Below, piece by piece: positions 3,690 through 45,853 of a DNA stretch of 64,000 nucleotides (position 1 is the first letter of the stretch; every line of letters starts with the position of its first letter). The notes under the pieces were generated by a model. The model saw only the letters and a list, made by a program, of their open reading frames with translations. It searched no databases and was not told the DNA's origin. The stretch lies in sequence record NC_133119.1; one strand, written 5' to 3'. The position numbers were made by a program, and so were the translations under genes. The DNA comes from Escherichia phage EscoHU1.

Positions 3690-3719
3690 TCGTTAACCCC
3701 TTCATCAATTTATATAACT

Positions 3720-3749
3720 ATTATATCAGAAATCTTAAGTAAAAAGCAA
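3720..3749 (-). promoter_or_regulatory. T5-type early promoter (-35 TTGCTT, -10 TATAAT)
   Basis: Reverse complement gives TTGCTT, 18-nt spacer, TATAAT, followed by the conserved AT-rich leader. Confidence 0.5.
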
Positions 3750-5945: not shown

Positions 5946-6638
5946 TTATTTGTTAACGCGTACAAAGTATCCTTTATAGGCTCCAAGAATGGAGTTACCT
6001 AAGAATACTAGCCACATTGCTAGGATTGCATAAGATGCACCTGTAGATTGAGCAGTTACAAGCCAAATGTATACAGTACCAATGTTAATAGCAATCCAGA
6101 TCAGCCATTGTTCAGCATATTGCTTGACCATAAGCCACATAGCAATCACACTACCAACCGCAGTAAATGCATCGAGCATCGGGAATGGATCAGCTGTAGT
6201 AGCAAGGAAGCTACCGTAACCTAAAGTAGCTACTGCTAGAACCCCTAGAGTCAGCAAAGCTTGGGCTTTAGTCAGAATCTTAGTTGGAACATCTGGCAGA
6301 TTACTTGGCTTATTTTTATGCCATAAGTACATTCCGTAGAACTGCATAGGAACGTAGTACAATAGGTTTAATGCTGCGTTACCATAAAGATCTGCATTTA
6401 AAGCTGTAATACCATAGGTAAGAACACCAACTAAGCCCCAAATATAGTTGGAAACGCGTCCTTTTGCAACCAAAATAACACAAACTACGTTGGTTATCGC
6501 AGTAGCCCAATCTAGAGGTGTACCATTATAGTTAGCTAAACTAATGAAGGCAACCGCTATGAACAGCCACAGATATTCCAGAGGTTTCCAGTTTTTAAAG
6601 TCATTTACGAGATAGTTAGTCATATTAAAACTCTCCAA
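5946..6638 (-). CDS. pnuC: nicotinamide riboside transporter PnuC-like membrane protein
   Basis: About 230 aa, multi-pass hydrophobic protein with W/Y-rich helices resembling PnuC; overlaps and follows the NadR-like gene. Confidence 0.65.
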   Translation of the reverse strand: MESFNMTNYLVNDFKNWKPLEYLWLFIAVAFISLANYNGTPLDWATAITNVVCVILVAKGRVSNYIWGLVGVLTYGITALNADLYGNAALNLLYYVPMQFYGMYLWHKNKPSNLPDVPTKILTKAQALLTLGVLAVATLGYGSFLATTADPFPMLDAFTAVGSVIAMWLMVKQYAEQWLIWIAINIGTVYIWLVTAQSTGASYAILAMWLVFLGNSILGAYKGYFVRVNK

Positions 6639-7680
6639 CGTTAAAGTGATGAATCAGCCAGTCTACTGCGTTTACTGCTTCGTCCATACGAACTTTGTAG
6701 TCCGGGGAGTCGATGTAAACAGTACGCCCTTCAGGGAACTGATTTGGAAATTCTTTCTTCATCTGCTCGAACAGTTCAGAAGTAATTGAACGATCGGAGT
6801 TAATACGTAAACCATCATCTACCCACTTGACAGTAGGCGCTAGAACAATTACTAAATCGTAATGTTCTTCTTTTGCAATTGCTGTAACCACAGGGTTCTT
6901 ACGATGTTCATAAAGTCTGTGGTAGAACTCAGTAATAAAAGCATTTGTATCCACAAACATGATCTTATTTGCAGTACGTTCTGCTTCAAATTCTAGCTCT
7001 TTGTGTCTGAACGCAATTTTACTATAATCTTCGCTGGTAAGCAGATTTTCGTTACCAACTAGATCAACTTCACAATACGTTCGGCCATATTCTTCTACCC
7101 ACGAAGTGTTGTATAGCTTCGCAAGGTATTTTGTTAAAGTAGTCTTTCCCGAGCTTTCAGTCCCAATGATTACAACCTTACGCACGTAATCTTTACGAAC
7201 TACGCTAGGAAGAAACTCCCAATACTTCATAAGATCATTACGAATCATTGTAGCTGAGATTGGAACACGAGTCCGATCAGAATCTACAATATAATGACCA
7301 AACTTCGGCAGATATTTCTTATATTCTGCATCATAGTCTAGTTCGCTAGAGAAAATGGTGATCTCAGGCAAATGTCCATAATTTTCATTAAGGATTCTAG
7401 CATATTCCGGCCAACCATTCGGATATTCAGGAATATCATCTTCAATAATGTACTCTACCGAAACGTGCTCAATATCCGCGTAAGTTTGTTCTAACCAACG
7501 AAGTCGATTCTTTAACTGTAATACTTCCTGATCACGTGTGTTCTGCTTATCCAGCCAACGATTATCATGACTAACTACAACAATAACTCGTTCACACATA
7601 GTTGCTGCTGTGTTTATTAGGTTAATATGACCACGCGTTAATGGTGCGAACTTACCAATTACTAGACCAGTCTTAATCAT
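6625..7680 (-). CDS. nadR: NadR-like bifunctional NMN adenylyltransferase / ribosylnicotinamide kinase
   Basis: N-terminal GKFAPLTRGH (nucleotidyltransferase HxGH-type motif) and central P-loop GTESSGKTT; start taken at MIKTGLVIGKF with RBS. Confidence 0.7.
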   Translation of the reverse strand: MIKTGLVIGKFAPLTRGHINLINTAATMCERVIVVVSHDNRWLDKQNTRDQEVLQLKNRLRWLEQTYADIEHVSVEYIIEDDIPEYPNGWPEYARILNENYGHLPEITIFSSELDYDAEYKKYLPKFGHYIVDSDRTRVPISATMIRNDLMKYWEFLPSVVRKDYVRKVVIIGTESSGKTTLTKYLAKLYNTSWVEEYGRTYCEVDLVGNENLLTSEDYSKIAFRHKELEFEAERTANKIMFVDTNAFITEFYHRLYEHRKNPVVTAIAKEEHYDLVIVLAPTVKWVDDGLRINSDRSITSELFEQMKKEFPNQFPEGRTVYIDSPDYKVRMDEAVNAVDWLIHHFNVGEF

Positions 7681-7710
7681 ATTTGATTCCTCTCTCAAAT
7701 TTATAAATAT

Positions 7711-7739
7711 ATTATACAGAGAATTTAGCATTCAAGCAA
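7711..7739 (-). promoter_or_regulatory. T5-type early promoter upstream of the NadR-like gene
   Basis: Reverse complement TTGCTT-17-TATAAT with conserved leader ...CATAAATTTGAGAGAGG. Confidence 0.5.
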
Positions 7740-24820: not shown

Positions 24821-26695
24821 ATGAATCGCAATGAAGAACTAAAGTATAAAGGAATGCAGTCCTTGATTAGAAACTGCAAAGAAATTATCGAAGGATCAGC
24901 AGATGAAGAGCTACTCTTTAATAATGCGAACAAACCAAGTGAACGTTTCCCTACACAAAGGGATATGCTTGCAGGGGAATTGAGTAAATATCTGATTCTG
25001 GAAGAAATGCCAATCCAGATTCGAAATGCTCACATGATTGGTGATATTCACTTCCATGATGCTGATTACGCTGCGTTAGGTATGACTAACTGTTGCCTGG
25101 TTGCTTTGGAAGATATGTTGAAGAATGGTATGAAGGTTGGTAATGCTGAAATCAGTACACCAAACTCTATTACTACTGCGGCTGCTATCACAGCTCAGAT
25201 TATCACTCAGGTTAGCTCCCATCAATATGGTGGTACTTCTGTAGACCGATTAGATGAAGTACTGGCTCCTTATGTTCGTAAGTCTTATGATAAGAATCAT
25301 GCGTTTGCAAAGCGTTGGACTAAGGATGAAGCCAAAGCATCTGTAATGGCTACGGAAATGACTGAGAAAGAAGTTTACGATGCCTGTCAAGGTCTAGAGT
25401 ATGAAATCAATACGATGTTCAACTCTAATGGTCAGAGTCCATTTATTACCTTTGGTTTTGGTCTAGGAACTTCCTGGGAAGCACGTCTTGTACAGAAAGC
25501 AATCTTAGAAGTGCGTATGGATGGTTTGGGTATCAATAAACGTACAGCTATCTTTCCTAAACTGGTATTTGTTTTGCGTGATGGCGTAAATATGAAACCT
25601 GGTGATGTTAACTATGATATCAAGAAGTTAGCTATGAAATGTACTGCTGAACGTATATATCCTGACTACATCAGTTATGATAAGGTTGTAGAAGTTACGG
25701 GAGACTACAAAGTCTCTATGGGCTGTCGTTCATTCCTGGCTGCTGCGGAAGATGGTGAAACTTCTGGTCGTAACAACTTAGGCGTTGTTTCCGTAAACCT
25801 TCCTCGAATCGCTATCGAAGCGGAAGGAAATATTGATATATTCTTCGATCTGCTTGAGCTGCGTGTGGATACCGCGTTAAAAGCATTGGAGTGGAGGGTT
25901 GATCGCTTAAAATACATTCAAGCTAAAGCTGCGCCCATCCTCTATATGTCAGGAGCCTTTGGATTACGTCTGGGGCCAGATGAATATGTATTTGATCATT
26001 TCTACAAGCGTGCTTCTGTATCTCTAGGATATATTGGTTGCCACGAAATGTTGCAGCTCATGTTTGGTAAAGATGTAGATACAATGTCTGAGTCTTGTAC
26101 CAAGTTCGTTCAACGTGTGCTACAATATATGCGTGATCGTGCTGATCAGAAGAAGGAAGAGACTCAACTAGGGTATAGTCTGTATGCTACACCATCTGAA
26201 TCTCTATGTGATCGCTTCTGTCGCCTAGACCGTGAGTATTTCCCAGAGCATGAAGATATTCTGGCTAAAGGATATTACACTAATTCCCATCACCTTGATG
26301 TGGAACGTAAGGTTGCTCCAAATGTGAAGTTTGATTATGAGTCTAACTTTACTCCTATTGCTTCTGGTGGGTGCATTTCCTATGTGGAATTACCGGATAT
26401 GAAACGATTCCCTGATGCACTGGAATGGGTTATTAACTATGCTGCAAGTAAAGTTCATTACTTCGGTATTAATACTCCAGTAGACTCTTGTGGGGAATGT
26501 GGGTTCTTGGGTGAAACTATAGCTTCTGAGGATGGTTTCAAATGCCCAATTTGTGGCAATCATGATCCTGAGACTCTTGAGGTAACTCGTCGAGTTTGTG
26601 GATATCTTGGAAATCCAGGTGCTCGTCCATTTAACCCAGGTAAACAACATGAGGTTATGGGTCGAGTGAAACATCAGGACATTCGCGCTAAATAA
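24821..26695 (+). CDS. nrdD: anaerobic ribonucleoside-triphosphate reductase (class III)
   Basis: 624 aa; C-terminal zinc ribbon CPICG and glycyl-radical motif RVCGYLG. Confidence 0.85.
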   Translation: MNRNEELKYKGMQSLIRNCKEIIEGSADEELLFNNANKPSERFPTQRDMLAGELSKYLILEEMPIQIRNAHMIGDIHFHDADYAALGMTNCCLVALEDMLKNGMKVGNAEISTPNSITTAAAITAQIITQVSSHQYGGTSVDRLDEVLAPYVRKSYDKNHAFAKRWTKDEAKASVMATEMTEKEVYDACQGLEYEINTMFNSNGQSPFITFGFGLGTSWEARLVQKAILEVRMDGLGINKRTAIFPKLVFVLRDGVNMKPGDVNYDIKKLAMKCTAERIYPDYISYDKVVEVTGDYKVSMGCRSFLAAAEDGETSGRNNLGVVSVNLPRIAIEAEGNIDIFFDLLELRVDTALKALEWRVDRLKYIQAKAAPILYMSGAFGLRLGPDEYVFDHFYKRASVSLGYIGCHEMLQLMFGKDVDTMSESCTKFVQRVLQYMRDRADQKKEETQLGYSLYATPSESLCDRFCRLDREYFPEHEDILAKGYYTNSHHLDVERKVAPNVKFDYESNFTPIASGGCISYVELPDMKRFPDALEWVINYAASKVHYFGINTPVDSCGECGFLGETIASEDGFKCPICGNHDPETLEVTRRVCGYLGNPGARPFNPGKQHEVMGRVKHQDIRAK

Positions 26696-26699
26696 TGAA

Positions 26700-26735
26700 T
26701 CAGCCAGGTTGCTAGTCGACCTGGCTTTTATTTTA
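26700..26735 (+). terminator. intrinsic terminator after nrdD
   Basis: Hairpin AGCCAGGT...ACCTGGCT followed by TTTTATTTTATTT. Confidence 0.6.
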
Positions 26736-26736
26736 T

Positions 26737-26765
26737 TTGCTTTCGAGCTAAAACTTATGTATAAT
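26737..26765 (+). promoter_or_regulatory. T5-type early promoter
   Basis: TTGCTT-17-TATAAT then ...TTTATAAATTTGAGAGGAG leader and ATG at 26794. Confidence 0.55.
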
Positions 26766-26793
26766 TGATTTATAAATTTGAGAGGAGAAAGCT

Positions 26794-27075
26794 ATGAGCG
26801 AATTGCTTCCGAAAGTAGATGTTTCCCATCTTGGAGAGCCTAGTGAAGAACGTAAGGCTCTAGATTGGTTGGGCGGATTTGATTATCGTCGTGTTGTTGC
26901 AACATGGAATGATAAGAAAGTTAAGAAGTTTCGGATACATTATGTAGGTAAAGACAAGTGGCTCTGGATTGATTATGAAGAATCGAAGGGGTCTACTAAG
27001 GCTGTGAAAATTTATCGTATGTATGGGTATTATTATGCTCACTGTGATAAGAATGAATTTACAGTACAGAACTAA
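26794..27075 (+). CDS. hypothetical protein
   Basis: 93 aa ORF with GAGAGGAG RBS. Confidence 0.5.
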   Translation: MSELLPKVDVSHLGEPSEERKALDWLGGFDYRRVVATWNDKKVKKFRIHYVGKDKWLWIDYEESKGSTKAVKIYRMYGYYYAHCDKNEFTVQN

Positions 27076-27084
27076 GGAACAAGA

Positions 27085-27288
27085 ATGAAAAACGTAAAAC
27101 ATCTTAAGTATCGCTTAATTTACAACGGACGTATGGAAACAGAAGATCTAGCTCAGCTAGCGATCAATTCAGATGAAGTTACAGTTCGTGCTTTGTCCAT
27201 CGAGAAGCTGCGTGCTTCTTACGAAAATCGTATTATGGAATTGGAGGAAAAACTTTATGGACTTCTTGAATCAGAATCTAAAAAGTAA
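27085..27288 (+). CDS. hypothetical protein
   Basis: 67 aa ORF, AAGGAACAAG RBS. Confidence 0.4.
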   Translation: MKNVKHLKYRLIYNGRMETEDLAQLAINSDEVTVRALSIEKLRASYENRIMELEEKLYGLLESESKK

Positions 27289-35501: not shown

Positions 35502-35810
35502 ATGAGCGATCAAGTAAATCAAAACTATGAAGGACACGTTGACGACCAGTCCATCATGCTTTGGGAGAAGGAGGGGGAACAAGTAAGACTAACCGTATCT
35601 GAATTTCGTGGGAATCTATACATGGGAATTCGTTACTGGCTCCAAGATATTACTGGAGAGTGGTTTCCAACGAAATCCGGCTTCTCTTTTCCTTATACCC
35701 TAGAAACTACATCACAGCTATTCTACGCTTTTACGCAAATCCTCAGCGAATCTGAGGTCTTGCATGAAGTACAGAAACGAGCTGAAGAACTCAAAGCCAA
35801 GAATGCCTAG
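35502..35810 (+). CDS. PC4-like ssDNA-binding protein
   Basis: 102 aa; beta-rich core LTVSEFRGNLYMGIRYW...FPTKSGFSF resembling the PC4/p15 fold. Confidence 0.5.
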   Translation: MSDQVNQNYEGHVDDQSIMLWEKEGEQVRLTVSEFRGNLYMGIRYWLQDITGEWFPTKSGFSFPYTLETTSQLFYAFTQILSESEVLHEVQKRAEELKAKNA

Positions 35811-35827
35811 TTCTTGGCTTTTTCTTT
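35794..35827 (+). terminator. intrinsic terminator
   Basis: Hairpin AAGCCAAGAA...TTCTTGGCTT followed by TTTCTTT. Confidence 0.5.
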
Positions 35828-35837
35828 ATAAATGTAC

Positions 35838-35866
35838 TTGCTTTCGACTCAGTTTTCATATATAAT
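35838..35866 (+). promoter_or_regulatory. T5-type early promoter
   Basis: TTGCTT-17-TATAAT then ...TTTATATAAATTGATGAGAGG. Confidence 0.55.
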
Positions 35867-35877
35867 ATTTATATAAA

Positions 35878-36096
35878 TTGATGAGAGGATCAATTATGGC
35901 AATGACAATAACACTTCCAAAGATTCAAGCAAAACTTAATTTGCTCTCCATAGCAAGAATCAATTACCAGGATAGTATCGGCACTCCAAACCAGAAAGCG
36001 TACAAAGATGCGTGGTTGAAAGAAGCTGCTGATTTAGCTGGTATGGCTGCGCAGTATAGTAAAGAACTCAAAATGGAAATCGCAGATGATGAATAA
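35878..36096 (+). CDS. hypothetical protein
   Basis: 72 aa ORF. Confidence 0.4.
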   Translation: MMRGSIMAMTITLPKIQAKLNLLSIARINYQDSIGTPNQKAYKDAWLKEAADLAGMAAQYSKELKMEIADDE

Positions 36097-37060
36097 TGTA
36101 AAAGACTTTATTAAACGTTGTCAAGAAGCGTACTACCAGGGAATGAGTCTTATTTCCGATGAAGAATATGATCGTCTGATTAAAAGATTCCCACTAGAGG
36201 AAGAAATCGGACCGAAAGGTGATATCCCTCATTTGTATCGTATGTATTCTTTGCAGAAAGTCTATTACGATCGTGGTGATAAAGCTCCATTCAACCCACT
36301 TGGTCAGGTTGAAACTGATAAGTTAGATGGTTGTGCGATTTCTCTATTATATATTAATGGTGAGTTTGTTCAAGCGTTAACTCGTGGTAACGGTATTCTA
36401 GGGAATGATGTAACGCATAATGTTAAAATGCTGAACATCCCCAAAACTATTTCCCAAAAAGTACCAACTCAAATCACTGGTGAAGTTCTCATTACTAAAG
36501 AAGTAGAGAACAAACGTAACTATGCTTCTGGTGCTATTAACCTGAAAGATAGTGATGATTTCATGCAACGTATTGGTGAAGGTGGTTTAATCTTCGTTGC
36601 ATATGGTATCCAGTGTTCAGCGGAAACAGTCGGTATTACAGAAGCCTATTTAAAAGATATGCTTTGGCTAGAGAATGAGAACTTCTTGACAGTTATTAAT
36701 GTTCGTTCCTTCTTTAAATGGATTCCGACAGATGGTAAAGTTGTTCGCATTAACGACAACAATAAATTCTTCCGTGAAGGTTGGACTAATAAATTTCCTC
36801 GTGGTGCATTTGCTATTAAAGAGGATGAAGAAGGCGAAATTACCACACTTGTTAAAGTTGAATGGCAAGTAGGGGCTTCTGGTAAAGTAACTCCAGTTGG
36901 TTATTTCGAACCGGTGATTATTGATGATGCCACAATCGTTAAAGCAACTCTTAATAACGTTGATTATATTAACGCTCTCGATTTAGAGATCGGTTGCCAG
37001 ATTCGAGTGATTCGTGCTGGTGGTGTAATCCCTTGTATAGTAGAGCGAGTATACGACTAA
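36086..37060 (+). CDS. NAD-dependent DNA ligase, N-terminal adenylation/OB portion
   Basis: Adenylation motif TDKLDGCAIS (KxDG) and motif-III-like block. Confidence 0.7.
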   Translation: MMNNVKDFIKRCQEAYYQGMSLISDEEYDRLIKRFPLEEEIGPKGDIPHLYRMYSLQKVYYDRGDKAPFNPLGQVETDKLDGCAISLLYINGEFVQALTRGNGILGNDVTHNVKMLNIPKTISQKVPTQITGEVLITKEVENKRNYASGAINLKDSDDFMQRIGEGGLIFVAYGIQCSAETVGITEAYLKDMLWLENENFLTVINVRSFFKWIPTDGKVVRINDNNKFFREGWTNKFPRGAFAIKEDEEGEITTLVKVEWQVGASGKVTPVGYFEPVIIDDATIVKATLNNVDYINALDLEIGCQIRVIRAGGVIPCIVERVYD

Positions 37061-37110
37061 TTCGTAACCCTTTGCTACCCGTTTACCATGTCGGAATTAT
37101 AAAGTGGTTA

Positions 37111-37139
37111 TTGACATTTTCGCCGCTTAGGTATATACT
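37111..37139 (+). promoter_or_regulatory. sigma70-like promoter (TTGACA-17-TATACT)
   Basis: TTGACATTTTCGCCG block shared with the promoter at 7856. Confidence 0.45.
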
Positions 37140-37203
37140 ATTATCATTCAGTTGAGGGATAGAAAGTTATGGCGAGGGTAAGCAAAGTTAGTTAAAATTG
37201 TAG

Positions 37204-37232
37204 TTGCTAAATGCTTAAATACTTGCTATAAT
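37204..37232 (+). promoter_or_regulatory. T5-type early promoter
   Basis: TTGCTA-17-TATAAT then ...TTTATATAAATTGATAAGGAAG and ATG 37263. Confidence 0.5.
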
Positions 37233-37262
37233 ATTTATATAAATTGATAAGGAAGAAATTTG

Positions 37263-38042
37263 ATGAAAATCGAAATTCCAACACAATGTCCCTCTTGTGG
37301 TTCTAAGCTAGATCTTGTCAACGGGCAATTATTCTGTAGGAATAAGTCCAACTGTCCAGCGCAATCAAGTAAGTTAATCGAGAACTTCTGCACAAAAATG
37401 AAGTTAAAGGGCTTTGGCCCGAAAACTATTGAGAAGCTGGAACTGACTAAGATCTCAGAACTGTTTTACCTGACCGAAGAAGATTTGGTCGGAGCTGTGG
37501 GTAGCAAGGTTGCCGCTAAGTTGATTAGCGAGTTAAATACTAAGGTTCGCGGAGACATTGACTTTGGTTCGGTTCTCGGTTCTTTAGGAATTCCTCTTAT
37601 TGGAGAGGTTGCAGCAAAGAAACTGTCCCAAAATTGCACTAGCTTCCACGATGTGAAGGCTGACGGCAAGGCTGGAGAAAATTACAAAACCTGGCTAAAT
37701 TCCCCACAAGGCAAGGATGTTATTGAATTACCATGGAAATTCTCAACTGGTATTCGAGGTACTAAAGCTGATATCATCATTACGGATGATTTAGTTGCCC
37801 AGCCAAATGGAATCACGATCTGTATTACCGGATCTTTGCAAGATTTTGCAAATCGAACGGATGCAACAAACTATTTAGAAAGTCTAGGATATACGGTTAA
37901 GAAATCCGTTACCAAAGACGTCAAATACCTAATCTGTGAGGATGAATCAAAACGTTCTTCCTCATCTTATAAGAAAGCCGAAACGAATGGGATAGAAATC
38001 CTGTCGATTAAAGAACTATTGGAGAAAAATAATAATGTCTAA
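37263..38042 (+). CDS. NAD-dependent DNA ligase, C-terminal zinc-finger/HhH/BRCT portion
   Basis: C4 zinc finger CPSCGSKLD...CRNKSNCP, helix-hairpin-helix-like GFGPKTIEKL, C-terminal BRCT-like region. Confidence 0.65.
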   Translation: MKIEIPTQCPSCGSKLDLVNGQLFCRNKSNCPAQSSKLIENFCTKMKLKGFGPKTIEKLELTKISELFYLTEEDLVGAVGSKVAAKLISELNTKVRGDIDFGSVLGSLGIPLIGEVAAKKLSQNCTSFHDVKADGKAGENYKTWLNSPQGKDVIELPWKFSTGIRGTKADIIITDDLVAQPNGITICITGSLQDFANRTDATNYLESLGYTVKKSVTKDVKYLICEDESKRSSSSYKKAETNGIEILSIKELLEKNNNV

Positions 38043-38802
38043 ACTGAACTGGAACGTAGAAGGTGTAACCGAGTCTCTGAAAGCAAAAGCCACTGCTCTG
38101 GGTGTTGCTGTAATCTCTCAAGAACAAGTAGCTGCTATCGCTGCTGAACTGGCTACCGAGACTGGTAAAGACGTTACCGCTCGCTCTGTTGGCTCTAAGC
38201 TGCGTAAAGAAGGTTTCGAAGTACAGAAAGCTAACGAAGTACAGAAATCCCCGTGGACTCCTGAGCAGGAAGCTGAACTAGTTGATTTCCTGAACGCTCA
38301 TGCTGGTCAGTATACTTACGCTGAAATCGCTGCTGCTGTAGCTGGTGGTCAGTTCGGTGCTAAGCAGGTACAGGGTAAGATCCTGAGTCTGGAAATGACC
38401 ACTTCTGTTAAGCCAACTGAAAAAGCTGCTGCTGTTCGTTCCTTCACTCCGGACGAAGAAACTGACTTCGTTAATCAGGTTGTTGCTGGTGCTACTATTG
38501 AAGCTATCGCTGCTCACTTCGGTCGCAATATTAAGCAGATCCGTGGTAAAGCTCTGAGCCTGCTTCGTGAAGGTCGTATCGCTGCTATGCCGGTACAGGA
38601 AACTTCAAGTGCTAAAACTCGTGAAGATCTGTTAGAAGGTCTGGATCTGGCTAACATGACTGTTGCTGAGATCGCTGAGAAAACTGGTAAGTCTGAGCGC
38701 GGTGTTAAGTCTATGCTGTCTCGTCGTGGTCTGGTTGCTAAGGACTATGATGGTGCCGCTAAGCGTGCTAAACTGGATGCAAAAGCTGCGGCTGCTGAAT
38801 AA
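38035..38802 (+). CDS. hypothetical protein with three to four internal HTH-like repeats
   Basis: Repeated about 60-aa unit (..AEIAAA..G....KQ..GK.LSL..); strongly biased host-like codon usage. Confidence 0.45.
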   Translation: MSKLNWNVEGVTESLKAKATALGVAVISQEQVAAIAAELATETGKDVTARSVGSKLRKEGFEVQKANEVQKSPWTPEQEAELVDFLNAHAGQYTYAEIAAAVAGGQFGAKQVQGKILSLEMTTSVKPTEKAAAVRSFTPDEETDFVNQVVAGATIEAIAAHFGRNIKQIRGKALSLLREGRIAAMPVQETSSAKTREDLLEGLDLANMTVAEIAEKTGKSERGVKSMLSRRGLVAKDYDGAAKRAKLDAKAAAAE

Positions 38803-38817
38803 TCTGGTAAATTAAAC

Positions 38818-38852
38818 CTAAGGGGAGGGGGCTATGCTCCTTCCCCTTTTTG
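38818..38852 (+). terminator. intrinsic terminator
   Basis: Hairpin AAGGGGAGG...CCTTCCCCTT followed by TTTTG. Confidence 0.55.
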
Positions 38853-38884
38853 CATTTAGAAGGCACGAAAGCGTGCAAAGGAGA

Positions 38885-40357
38885 ATGACCTTGTTTAACG
38901 TGCAAGCTGTAGTGTTGAAGATGCTTCTCGCTTCTGAACAGAAGCAAATAGCATTGGAAACATTCTCAAAACTGCATAAAGATCATTTTAATGACGCTTT
39001 CTCCTCAATTTACCAAGCCGTCCAGAATTATTATAAGAAATATAACGCAATGCCGTCCATTGACGCACTGATGCTTGAGGCCAATAGGAACGCCCGCCTT
39101 TCTCAAGCTCTTGTCGTCTTAGCTAACACTCAAATTCCAGAAGTGAGCATGGAACAGGCGCTTGAAGTCCTAGAAGCCGAATATACACAGGATCTATTCC
39201 TGAAACTTCTAGAAACAGACGTGCTTCAAGATTTAACAATGCTGGATCAGGGAGAAATTCTCAACCGAGTTGCCTCCCTTCACTTAAAATTAGAAGAGAA
39301 AGTAACGAATACTGGAAAGGTATTCAACGCAGACACAATGCGTATTTTCCAGAGAGAAGAAGATACCAAACTGAACTTGATCGCTCTTGGTATTTGTAAT
39401 GAGTTCGACGCTCAAATTGGTTTAGCTCGCACAGAAACGTTACTGCTTGGTGGTTGGCGTGGTACTGGTAAATCCATTATCTGTTCAAACATACAGGTTC
39501 AGCAATATTTGAATGGAGACATTGCTCCATACTTCTCAATTGAGATGAAAGAGCACGAAGTGTTTAGACGTAATCTGGCTATGTTAGCTGGAGTATCTGC
39601 ATTAGCAATGCGTAATAACACTCTTGAAGGTGCTGCTCTGTTGAGATTAGCCAGAACTAGGGCTAGGATGTTTAATGGGGGTGAAGAGCTTTTCGATAAC
39701 TTCGTTAAGCAATACACTATGGCTAAAATGAGTGACTTCTATGATATGGAAAGTAAACTCCTTGAAGGCTATGAGCTTCACACTCCTATGATCATCGTTT
39801 ACGATCCTGAACTGTCTATTACGACGGTTGACGTAGAATTAAATAAACTAGTTGCTAAATATGGTGATAAGGTTACTGTAGCTCTTCTAGACTATATTAA
39901 CCAAACAAGACTTCCAGATTCAAAGACCATTGATATGTATGACTGGAAAGAACAGATGGTTGTTAGTTCATCTTTCAAATCTATCTGCCAGAAACATAAC
40001 GTGGCTGGTGTTGCCCCTTACCAGATTGACCAAGATGGTAGAACGCGTATGTCTAAAGGGATTCTTGATTCCGCAGATATGGCTGCTAATCTTAATGCTG
40101 CAAAAGCTGATAACGGTCAAGGTGCTATTATGTTTGACTTCGTTAAGACTCGTTCCTCTGATAGCGTGAAGTTTATGCCTAAGATGAACTGGGAAACTCT
40201 GCGAATGGATAACACTACCAACCTAGCAATGGAAGATATTGCGCAAATGGAAGCTGAGTTCGTTATTCCGATTGAAAAGGATAAACCAGCTCAACCTAAA
40301 CGTGCTAAGAAAGACAAAGCTGAAAATTCAACAGGTGAACAGGCCAGCGATATATGA
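38885..40357 (+). CDS. DnaB-like replicative helicase (RecA-fold ATPase)
   Basis: Walker A LGGWRGTGKS and FSIEMK (DnaB H1a-like); start placed after the terminator hairpin. Confidence 0.5.
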   Translation: MTLFNVQAVVLKMLLASEQKQIALETFSKLHKDHFNDAFSSIYQAVQNYYKKYNAMPSIDALMLEANRNARLSQALVVLANTQIPEVSMEQALEVLEAEYTQDLFLKLLETDVLQDLTMLDQGEILNRVASLHLKLEEKVTNTGKVFNADTMRIFQREEDTKLNLIALGICNEFDAQIGLARTETLLLGGWRGTGKSIICSNIQVQQYLNGDIAPYFSIEMKEHEVFRRNLAMLAGVSALAMRNNTLEGAALLRLARTRARMFNGGEELFDNFVKQYTMAKMSDFYDMESKLLEGYELHTPMIIVYDPELSITTVDVELNKLVAKYGDKVTVALLDYINQTRLPDSKTIDMYDWKEQMVVSSSFKSICQKHNVAGVAPYQIDQDGRTRMSKGILDSADMAANLNAAKADNGQGAIMFDFVKTRSSDSVKFMPKMNWETLRMDNTTNLAMEDIAQMEAEFVIPIEKDKPAQPKRAKKDKAENSTGEQASDI

Positions 40358-41244
40358 GTAGAATAACAGAACTACTTGATCTGAAAGGCATTGAATACAA
40401 AGACACAGGTGGGGACATCCTCATCTGTTGTCTCAATCCAGATCATGATGATAAACATCCAAGCTTGCGTATTGATCCTGAATCAGGTATTATGCATTGC
40501 TTGAGCTGTGGCTTCGGTAGAGGAATACCGAGCATTTACCATTATTTTAATGAGACTCAGTACAGACAGTCACCAAGATTGTCACAAGTACGTAAAAAGA
40601 TTTCAGAGATTAGGAATGGATCTACGAATCTTGCAATTCCTGAATCTGCTTACCTTTTCGAAGGTGATTTCCGAGGTATCAGTTCTAAGACCTTGAAGAA
40701 ATATTTTGCTTTCCAACATCAAGCAGACTGGGAAGGCAGAATTGTATTCCCAATAACAGATGCTGTTGGACGCAATATCCTATTTCTGGGACGTTCTATA
40801 AACAGTTCTGCCCCTCCTAAATACTTAGTAAAACCAAAACAAGTTTCACCACCGATTTTCCCTGTACGATATAATACACCAGTTCTTGTTCTAGTTGAAG
40901 GTATCTTTGATATGTTAAATCTAGAAGATAACGGTGTGGATTATGCTTCTTGCTGCTTTGGTACACATCAGTTTACATCTGATAACATTGCTGATAAGTT
41001 CAGTCCTTACATTATTGCTGGAGTAAGAGTAGTTGTTATCTTGCTAGATAATGATGCCTCTGGTAATAAAGCTGCCCAAGCACTAGCGAAGCTAATTCGT
41101 ACAAAAACACGTTTAACACCTGTAGTTGGTAACTTCCTTCTTCCAGAAGGCAAAGACCCAGGTGACTTAAATAAAGAAGAGATCGATATGTTGGCTCAAC
41201 GTATTGAAATTTTAGTTGCCGAATCGCTCAAAGATTTGGTATAA
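40354..41244 (+). CDS. DnaG-like DNA primase
   Basis: Zinc-binding CHC2-type motif (CLNPDHDDKHPS...HCLSCG) and Toprim region (VLVEGIFD...LDNDASG). Confidence 0.65.
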   Translation: MSRITELLDLKGIEYKDTGGDILICCLNPDHDDKHPSLRIDPESGIMHCLSCGFGRGIPSIYHYFNETQYRQSPRLSQVRKKISEIRNGSTNLAIPESAYLFEGDFRGISSKTLKKYFAFQHQADWEGRIVFPITDAVGRNILFLGRSINSSAPPKYLVKPKQVSPPIFPVRYNTPVLVLVEGIFDMLNLEDNGVDYASCCFGTHQFTSDNIADKFSPYIIAGVRVVVILLDNDASGNKAAQALAKLIRTKTRLTPVVGNFLLPEGKDPGDLNKEEIDMLAQRIEILVAESLKDLV

Positions 41245-45796: not shown

Positions 45797-45826
45797 TTGT
45801 CAAATCCTCCCGATTTAATGTATAAT
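45797..45826 (+). promoter_or_regulatory. T5-type promoter (TTGTCA-18-TATAAT)
   Basis: Followed by ...CATAAATTGATGAGAGAC and ATG 45854. Confidence 0.5.
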
Positions 45827-45853
45827 ATATACATAAATTGATGAGAGACAAAA

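What the first reader, a model, noticed from the sequence alone, without database searches (positions are those of the whole stretch)
36086..38042. NAD-dependent DNA ligase encoded as two separate genes split by a promoter-bearing spacer
The adenylation/OB portion (KxDG motif, 36086-37060) and the Zn-finger/HhH/BRCT portion (37263-38042) are separated by a 200-bp spacer containing two promoters (37111-37139 and 37204-37232), so the second half can be transcribed independently. A two-subunit NAD ligase is unusual and ties in with the NAD+ salvage genes.
Basis: partly seen in the sequence, partly recalled or inferred. Interest (0 to 1): 0.45.

Follow-up and report, generated by a model that had tools for sequence, protein, structure and literature searches.

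The report
T5-type split NAD-dependent DNA ligase
The window comes from a T5-like phage, and the two-gene NAD-dependent DNA ligase with two promoters in the gap is real, but it is the ligA / P-K28b / P-K28a / ligB arrangement already annotated in phage T5 since 2005, so it is ordinary for this phage family.

Summary
ORF A (36086-37060) carries domain Ia, the adenylation domain (KLDG) and the OB fold. ORF B (37263-38042) carries the four-Cys zinc finger, HhH and BRCT. They are separated by a 202-bp spacer holding two strong sigma-70 promoters.

It is not new. The window is 99.5% identical to Epseptimavirus mar003J3. The reference T5 genome annotates the same string: ligA, promoter P-K28b, promoter P-K28a, ligB, D5. 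[quoted passage not shown] 2005. The link to NMN uptake and NAD+ synthesis genes was proposed in 2015 for phage Stitch. PDB entries 9HU3 and 9I5I hold both subunits of the orthologue from Providencia phage PR1/PSTCR5.

- The split point is the same in every Demerecviridae genus sampled and lies at the OB/zinc-finger boundary.
- Fused genes appeared only in unrelated phages, at 38% identity or less.
- Both promoters are conserved from Escherichia to Vibrio phages while the rest of the spacer diverges.
- The spacer has no intron, homing-endonuclease or intein remnant.
- P-K28b/a plausibly drive a ligB-D5 unit.

Verdict: real, already known, low interest.

The parts
35793..35821 (+). Terminator-like hairpin (12-bp stem plus T run) that closes the upstream unit, before the ligA unit
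   Evidence: sequence
35838..35866 (+). Promoter-like site TTGCTT-17-TATAAT ahead of the small ORF and ligA. It is followed by the same 18-mer (ATATTTATATAAATTGAT) that follows P-K28a. T5 annotates an unnamed promoter at the corresponding place.
   Evidence: Read from the sequence; it falls below the threshold of the scan.
35896..36096 (+). Small hypothetical ORF (66 aa from the ATG annotated in mar003J3) that overlaps the ligA start. T5 has no such ORF: there ligA follows the promoter directly.
36086..37060 (+). [quoted passage not shown]
37061..37262 (+). 202-bp non-coding spacer. Stops in all frames, no Rfam match, no significant secondary structure at its 5' end.
37111..37139 (+). Promoter P-K28b (TTGACA-17-TATACT), identical to T5
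37204..37232 (+). Promoter P-K28a (TTGCTA-17-TATAAT with TG extended -10), identical to T5
37249..37255 (+). Ribosome-binding site AAGGAAG, 7 nt upstream of the ligB ATG
   Evidence: read from the sequence
37263..38042 (+). ligB, NAD-dependent DNA ligase subunit B: four-Cys zinc finger (C9, C12, C25, C31), HhH region and BRCT
38035..38802 (+). D5 DNA-binding protein gene. It overlaps the ligB stop by 8 nt and lies in the same predicted transcription unit.
38820..38848 (+). Strong terminator-like hairpin (13 pairs, 8 G-C, T run) that ends the predicted ligB-D5 unit
5946..7731 (-). NAD+ supply genes: PnuC-type NMN transporter (5946-6638) and a NadR-like protein with cytidylyltransferase-like and AAA_28 kinase-type domains (6625-7731)
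   Evidence: link to the ligase proposed in PMC4319617

Best explanation
This is the T5-type two-subunit NAD+-dependent DNA ligase of the phage family Demerecviridae.

LigA (324 aa) holds the NMN-binding domain Ia, the nucleotidyltransferase domain with the active-site lysine (K79 in KLDG) and the OB fold. By homology it takes AMP from NAD+ and carries out the chemistry. LigB (259 aa) holds the zinc finger, the HhH DNA-binding domain and BRCT. It supplies the half of the DNA clamp that a bacterial LigA has in the same chain. The two proteins associate non-covalently, on their own or on nicked DNA, to seal nicks and Okazaki fragments in the phage DNA.

The gene was cut once, at the OB/zinc-finger boundary, in an ancestor of the family. 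The gap is occupied by the tandem early promoters P-K28b and P-K28a. These promoters start a transcription unit of ligB plus the overlapping D5 gene, ending at the terminator at 38820-38848. ligA belongs to the preceding unit (promoter at 35838-35866). No terminator follows ligA, so read-through into ligB is also likely.

Shown here: domain content, motif conservation, split position, conservation of the promoters, and distribution across the family. Taken from public records: the promoter names, and the deposition of both subunits of an orthologue in one structure. Inferred: heterodimer function, the extent of the transcription units, and an excess of LigB over LigA.
For: Identity and annotation
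- The window is 99.5% identical to Epseptimavirus mar003J3, and 427 phage records cover at least 80% of the region.
- The same gene and promoter string is annotated in T5 NC_005859 and in Salmonella phage S114.

Domains and motifs
- Pfam and PHROG domain assignments.
- A+B aligned to E. coli LigA gives 32% identity. Conserved residues are Y22, D32, Y35, D36 (domain Ia), K115/D117/G118 (motif I), R136, E173, R200, D285/G286, K314, R379, C408/C411/C432 and the HhH glycines G455, G489, G521.
- A ends opposite E. coli residue ~393 and B starts opposite ~400.

One ancestral split
- All eight orthologue pairs compared end and start at the same positions.
- The two subunits diverge in step: A is 95/73/56/46/59/51/54% identical to the window, B is 96/72/55/45/55/53/54%.
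- In a spread sample of 60 of 1079 tblastn records, no T5-like hit (52% identity or more) crossed the junction in one piece; all were split. Single-piece fused hits began at 38% identity or less, in unrelated phages.

Promoters
- Both are conserved across genera, including Vibrio phage Brizo. Vibrio phage JSF10 keeps only the P-K28a-like one.

Structure and biochemistry
- PDB 9HU3/9I5I contain chain A (E 8.8e-107 to LigA) and chain B 'DNA ligase subunit B' (E 9.2e-80 to LigB). Chain B is 100% identical to Providencia phages PR1 and PSTCR5.
- A LigN truncation made to mimic T5 LigA adenylates itself normally but cannot ligate, so the C-terminal half is needed (PMC1684257).

Transcription units
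-.
Against: - No biochemical or transcript data for this phage were available here.
- I found no paper describing activity of the T5 A+B pair or describing the 9HU3 structure. The presence of both chains in one PDB entry is the only direct sign of a complex.
- Motif IV Lys290 of E. coli LigA aligns with Arg in subunit A, Arg333 aligns with Ala, and His23 of domain Ia aligns with Gln. The active site is therefore not a perfect copy.
- One of the four HhH motifs (around E. coli G553) is deleted in B.
- The Pfam HhH score is below its cut-off: 21.6 against 27.
Confidence: 0.92

Rival explanations
1. The two proteins have separated functions. LigA is a self-sufficient minimal ligase. LigB, made from its own strong promoters together with D5, is an independent DNA-, nick- or partner-binding factor, for example at the site-specific nicks of T5-type genomes.
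For: - ligB sits in a different predicted transcription unit from ligA and is translationally overlapped with D5.
- In Vibrio phages one to three other genes lie between ligA and ligB, so close linkage is not required.
Against: - The two subunits diverge at the same rate across the family.
- Both subunits of an orthologue are deposited together in one structure.
- A LigA-like truncation of a related NAD ligase adenylates but does not ligate.
- Every family member sampled keeps both genes.
Confidence: 0.06
2. The split is the scar of a mobile element (group I intron, homing endonuclease gene or split intein), and a single polypeptide is restored by RNA or protein splicing.
For: - T5-like genomes are rich in HNH homing endonuclease genes.
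- In relatives the gap accepts inserted ORFs.
Against: - No Rfam family matches 36800-37500, even at E up to 1.
- The spacer has stops in all frames and carries two conserved promoters.
- A's last residues and B's first residues abut consecutive LigA positions, with no extra intein-like sequence.
- The ORFs inserted in relatives are DprA-like or unknown. None matches a homing endonuclease family.
Confidence: 0.01
3. The split is a sequencing or assembly artefact, or a decaying pseudogene.
For: Fragmented ligase annotations do occur. In phage IME178 ligA itself is called as two ORFs.
Against: - The gap is 202 bp, not a frameshift.
- The same architecture is present in hundreds of independently sequenced genomes of many genera.
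- Both halves keep their catalytic and structural residues.
Confidence: 0.01

Closest known systems
Phage T5 ligA (T5.116) / ligB (T5.117) with promoters P-K28b and P-K28a (NC_005859; Wang et al. 2005, Virology 332:45, as cited in PMC1684257)
   Same: - Same gene order, same split point and same spacer length (202 bp).
- Identical sequence across both promoter cores.
- 95% (A) and 96% (B) protein identity.
- Same downstream D5 gene overlapping ligB.
   Different: The window belongs to the Epseptimavirus branch. It has an extra 66-aa ORF between the upstream promoter and ligA, and it carries PnuC and NadR-like genes that the Stitch paper says T5 lacks.
Providencia phage PR1/PSTCR5 two-subunit ligase, PDB 9HU3 and 9I5I
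   Same: Orthologous A and B subunits, deposited as two chains of one entry, with 56% and 55% identity to the window proteins.
   Different: It comes from a different genus (Priunavirus). Its record annotates a terminator directly after ligA and only one promoter, although the alignment shows both promoter-like pairs. I found no publication for the structure.
Bacterial LigA (E. coli b2411, 671 aa; PDB 2OWO)
   Same: Same domain order Ia-NTase-OB-Zn-HhH-BRCT, with conserved NAD+/NMN-binding and catalytic residues. Identity is 32% over the concatenated A+B.
   Different: - E. coli LigA is one polypeptide.
- The phage enzyme is cut between OB and the zinc finger and is about 90 aa shorter in total (583 aa against 671).
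- It has deletions in the NTase domain and lacks one HhH motif.
- K290 aligns with R, and R333 with A.
Full-length phage NAD ligases (PHROG 3869; e.g. Vibrio phage phiKT1028, Erythrobacter phage XM05)
   Same: Same family. Both A and B match the profile end to end: 9-381 and 388-654 of 656.
   Different: These are fused single genes, only 38% identical or less across the junction, and found in unrelated phage groups.

Membership tests
NAD+-dependent DNA ligase (LigA family) | Domain Ia with the NMN-binding residues (E. coli Y22, D32, Y35, D36) | tested here: met
   All four are conserved in the alignment with E. coli LigA. Y16, Y28 and D29 are invariant across the family. H23 is replaced by Q.
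NAD+-dependent DNA ligase (LigA family) | Nucleotidyltransferase motifs I (KxDG), III, IV and V | tested here: met
   K79-L-D-G, E133 (E. coli E173), D216-G217 (D285-G286) and K245 (K314) are invariant in nine sequences. Pfam PF01653 scores 84.1 bits against a cut-off of 27. E. coli K290 aligns with Arg.
NAD+-dependent DNA ligase (LigA family) | OB-fold domain of NAD ligases | tested here: met
   PF03120 scores 77.1 bits against a cut-off of 32.9. It aligns to residues 284-390 of PDB 2OWO.
NAD+-dependent DNA ligase (LigA family) | Four-cysteine zinc finger | tested here: met
   C9, C12, C25 and C31 of B. C9, C12 and C31 are invariant including in E. coli, and C25 is present in all eight phage sequences.
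NAD+-dependent DNA ligase (LigA family) | HhH DNA-binding domain (four HhH motifs) | tested here: inconclusive
   B residues 3-122 align to LigA 402-529 (E 1.2e-11), and three HhH glycines are conserved. However, Pfam HHH_2 is below its cut-off (21.6 against 27), and the segment holding the fourth motif is deleted.
NAD+-dependent DNA ligase (LigA family) | C-terminal BRCT domain | tested here: met
   PF00533 scores 36.1 bits against a cut-off of 21.3.
NAD+-dependent DNA ligase (LigA family) | NAD+-dependent nick-sealing activity | not testable with these tools
   Needs an enzyme assay. I found no published assay of a T5-type A+B pair.
T5-type split ligase LigA/LigB (PHROG 3359 + PHROG 3498) | Two separate ORFs cut at the OB/zinc-finger boundary | tested here: met
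   phrog_3359 E 3.5e-176 over 1-325 of 325, and phrog_3498 E 6e-137 over 1-255 of 256. The ends are the same in all eight orthologue pairs.
T5-type split ligase LigA/LigB (PHROG 3359 + PHROG 3498) | Tandem promoters P-K28b and P-K28a between the genes, and D5 immediately downstream | tested here: met
   The sequence is identical to T5 across both annotated promoters. D5 overlaps ligB by 8 nt.
T5-type split ligase LigA/LigB (PHROG 3359 + PHROG 3498) | Physical association of the two subunits | not testable with these tools
   Only indirect evidence: the orthologous chains A and B are deposited together in PDB 9HU3/9I5I.
Split-intein (trans-splicing) gene pair | Intein halves appended at the C-end of the first protein and the N-end of the second | tested here: not met
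   A ends and B begins at adjacent LigA positions, with no extra residues.
Gene interrupted by a group I intron or homing endonuclease gene | Intron RNA structure or an endonuclease ORF (or its remnant) in the gap | tested here: not met
   No Rfam match at E up to 1. The only ORF of 40 aa or more touching the spacer is a 53-aa one that starts inside ligA and ends in the spacer. The ORFs inserted in relatives match no endonuclease family.

The most novel reading that the evidence does not exclude
Splitting the ligase lets the phage set the two halves at different levels. LigB, driven by two strong early promoters and co-translated with the DNA-binding protein D5, would be made in excess over LigA. 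It would then have a second job of its own, for example marking or protecting the site-specific nicks of T5-type DNA, or recruiting partners through its BRCT domain. The gap between ligA and the promoters would serve as a family-wide landing site for extra genes (DprA-like genes in Vibrio phages).
Probability: 0.1. Interest if true: 0.45.

Novelty: already known. Interest (0 to 1): 0.1.

Why it matters
A naturally split NAD+ ligase is a useful model for how the catalytic core and the DNA-clamp half of LigA cooperate, and for how phages tune replication proteins. That point was made when T5 was sequenced, has already motivated biochemical work (the LigN truncation), and now has a deposited structure. 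For this window the finding only confirms that the phage is a typical member of the T5 family. The modest additions here are that the split point and the tandem promoters are conserved across the whole family, and that ligB appears to share a transcription unit with D5.

Tried and rejected
- Intron or other structured RNA in the spacer: Rfam search of 36800-37500 at E up to 1 found nothing.
- Terminator after ligA: no terminator-like site, and the fold of 37050-37115 is no better than shuffles (z -0.65).
- Read-through or frameshift fusion: there are stops in all frames, and A and B are in different frames.
- Homing-endonuclease origin: seven ORFs found between ligA and ligB in relatives were scanned against Pfam and PHROGs. 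Two are DprA-like, one matches a PHROG labelled 'DNA ligase' (JSF10, 73 aa), one matches families of unknown function, and three match nothing. None matches an HNH, GIY-YIG or LAGLIDADG family.
- Papers on the 9HU3/9I5I structure, or on a 'split', 'two-subunit' or 'heterodimeric' DNA ligase: nothing beyond PMC1684257.
- Papers naming the K28a/K28b promoters: only irrelevant hits.
- Two Python runs failed because locus files were not yet available in /data. The alignments were made with the alignment tools instead.
- Not run, because the finding was already explained: the large protein-database searches, structure prediction and fold search.
Full report
**1. What is in the sequence**

The region holds two + strand ORFs, 36086-37060 (324 aa) and 37263-38042 (259 aa), separated by 202 bp.

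Pfam scores the first ORF as NAD-dependent DNA ligase adenylation domain (84.1 bits) plus NAD-ligase OB fold (77.1 bits). It scores the second as BRCT (36.1 bits), with a sub-threshold HhH match.

Against PHROGs, each ORF matches its own family end to end: phrog_3359 (E 3.5e-176) and phrog_3498 (E 6e-137). Both also match consecutive parts of the full-length phage NAD-ligase profile phrog_3869: A covers positions 9-381 and B covers 388-654 of 656. The two ORFs together therefore make one complete ligase with nothing lost at the cut.

The spacer has several stops in every frame, and the two ORFs are in different frames. This is not a frameshift or a read-through fusion.

**2. Motifs and the position of the cut**

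I aligned the concatenated A+B to E. coli LigA (32% identity). The conserved residues are:
- the NMN-binding residues of domain Ia (Y22, D32, Y35, D36);
- motif I K115-L-D-G (K79-L-D-G in A, nt 36320-36331);
- R136, E173, R200, D285-G286, K314 and R379;
- the zinc-finger cysteines and three HhH glycines.

A ends opposite E. coli residue ~393 and B starts opposite ~400. My own knowledge of the 2OWO structure places the OB/zinc-finger boundary at about residue 403/404.

The differences are H23 to Q, K290 to R, R333 to A, several deletions in the NTase domain, and loss of the segment with the fourth HhH motif.

**3. Where the window comes from, and what is already annotated**

The region is 99.5% identical to Escherichia phage vB_Eco_mar003J3 (Demerecviridae, Epseptimavirus). 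At the 'near' (megablast) setting, 459 phage records match and 427 of them cover at least 80% of the query. [quoted passage not shown]

The reference T5 genome NC_005859 annotates, in order: ligA (T5.116), promoter P-K28b, promoter P-K28a, ligB (T5.117) and D5. Salmonella phage S114 labels the same two sites 'T5 promoter P-K 28b-like' and 'P-K 28a-like'.

In an alignment of the spacers, the window is identical to T5 across both promoters.

From my own knowledge, these belong to the set of very strong T5 promoters characterised by Bujard's group in the 1980s. I could not retrieve that paper here.

**4. Literature**

[quoted passage not shown] 2005. Prompted by it, the authors made a LigN truncation of domain Ia, adenylation domain and OB fold. 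That protein adenylated itself as well as the full-length enzyme but was inactive in ligation.
- PMC3632103 lists ligA and ligB of T5 among the replication genes.
- PMC4319617 (phage Stitch, 2015) states that the A and B subunits presumably seal the nicks of the T5-type genome. It adds that the phage's NMN transporter and NMN adenylyltransferase 'probably aid in efficient ligation'.

The corresponding genes are in this window: PnuC at 5946-6638 and a NadR-like protein at 6625-7731, both on the - strand.

**5. Solved structure**

The PDB holds two entries, 9HU3 and 9I5I, each with two relevant chains. One is a 339-aa chain 'DNA ligase (NAD(+))' matching LigA at E 8.8e-107. The other is a 248-aa chain 'DNA ligase subunit B' matching LigB at E 9.2e-80. 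The B chain is 100% identical to Providencia phages PR1 and PSTCR5, which are T5-like phages of the genus Priunavirus. I found no paper for these entries.

**6. Distribution of the split**

I compared orthologue pairs from seven other phages:
- T5;
- Klebsiella phage Sealy;
- Providencia phage PR1;
- Aeromonas phage AhSzw-1;
- Proteus phage M4H10_20;
- Vibrio phage Brizo;
- Vibrio phage JSF10.

All of them end A and begin B at the same alignment positions. The two subunits have diverged in step: A is 95/73/56/46/59/51/54% identical to the window protein, and B is 96/72/55/45/55/53/54%.

A tblastn search with a 176-aa query spanning the junction matched 1079 phage records. In a spread sample of 60, no T5-like hit (52% identity or more) crossed the junction in one piece; all were split. 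Single-piece fused hits began at 38% identity or less, in unrelated phages such as Vibrio phage phiKT1028, Erythrobacter phage XM05 and Citromicrobium phage RXM.

The simplest reading is one ancient cut in an ancestor of Demerecviridae, followed by joint purifying selection on both halves.

**7. The spacer**

The alignment covers eight phages in six genera (Tequintavirus, Epseptimavirus, the unclassified Klebsiella phage Sealy, Priunavirus, Shenzhenvirus, Novosibvirus). The invariant columns are essentially TTGAC and TATA-T of the first promoter and TTGC and TTG-TATA-T of the second. Most other spacer positions vary. Vibrio phage Brizo has both promoters, and JSF10 has only the second.

The promoters are therefore under selection. 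The raw count of promoter-like sites in the neighbourhood would not have shown this: 22 found against 20.2 expected.

Rfam finds nothing in the spacer.

Some relatives carry extra ORFs between the ligA stop and the promoters:
- a 64-aa ORF in Salmonella phage smaug;
- a 55-aa ORF in Proteus phage M4H10_20;
- three ORFs in Brizo and two in JSF10, one of them DprA-like in each.

None matches a homing endonuclease family. There is no support for an excised intron or endonuclease gene, nor for a split intein, because no extra residues flank the cut.

**8. Transcription logic (inferred)**

A terminator-like hairpin at 35793-35821 is followed by TTGCTT-17-TATAAT at 35838-35866, then a 66-aa ORF, then ligA. 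T5 annotates an unnamed promoter at the equivalent place.

No terminator-like site follows ligA, and the fold there is no better than shuffles.

P-K28b and P-K28a precede ligB, which has a good ribosome-binding site (AAGGAAG, 37249-37255). The ligB stop overlaps the D5 start by 8 nt. A strong terminator-like hairpin follows D5 at 38820-38848.

So ligB-D5 looks like a unit with its own strong promoters, which also receives read-through from ligA. The promoters may be there as much for D5 as for ligB. A consequence would be more LigB than LigA, which is untested.

**9. Verdict**

All of it is already in the public annotation and literature for T5 and its relatives, and a structure of an orthologous pair is deposited.

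Novelty: already known. Interest: low (0.1).

The one reading with some novelty that the data do not exclude is that the split serves differential dosage, or a separate role for LigB. I give this about 10%.

Noticed in passing
window 5946-7731 (- strand): PnuC-type NMN transporter (PF04973, E 1.9e-43) and a NadR-like protein with cytidylyltransferase-like and AAA_28 domains. This NAD+ supply pair is reported for EPS7-type phages but, according to PMC4319617, is absent from T5. The close relative mar003J3 also annotates a Sir2-like protein further along (record 26387-27211).
   Followed up: partly
window 3704-3721 (-), 35865-35882, 37231-37248, 45825-45842 (+): An 18-mer, ATATTTATATAAATTGAT (up to 2 mismatches), occurs four times against 0.05 expected. 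At the two sites I read, it starts within the -10 hexamer of a promoter. It may be a conserved initial-transcribed or 5'-UTR element of T5-type early promoters.
   Followed up: partly
window 40354-40357 (junction of helicase 38834-40357 and primase 40354-41244); compare L001 10555-11085 and L008 9615-10148: In this window the D6 helicase and primase genes abut directly. T5 and mar003J3 carry an HNH endonuclease gene (hegJ, P-TflX) between them. This is a presence/absence polymorphism of a homing endonuclease gene.
   Followed up: no
L012 1268-1462; L006 2076-2243; L004 2091-3309; L005 2084-2916: The stretch between the ligA stop and promoter P-K28b accepts inserted genes in relatives: small unknown ORFs in Salmonella phage smaug and Proteus phage M4H10_20, and DprA-like genes plus others in Vibrio phages. 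In the Proteus phage the DprA gene sits immediately upstream of ligA instead.
   Followed up: partly
L013 201-1171 (Escherichia phage IME178): ligA itself is annotated as two ORFs (200 aa and 120 aa) in this Tequintavirus. It is probably a frameshift or a sequencing error. A 'DNA ligase (x3)' annotation also appears for Salmonella phage GSW6.
   Followed up: no
window 35896-36096: A 66-aa hypothetical ORF lies between the upstream promoter and ligA and overlaps the ligA start by 11 nt. T5 has no ORF here: ligA follows the promoter directly.
   Followed up: no
window 37263-38042 (LigB residues ~130-175): Compared with E. coli LigA, the segment holding the fourth HhH motif (around G553) is missing in LigB of the enterobacterial T5-like phages. 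The Vibrio phage orthologues keep a few more residues there.
   Followed up: no
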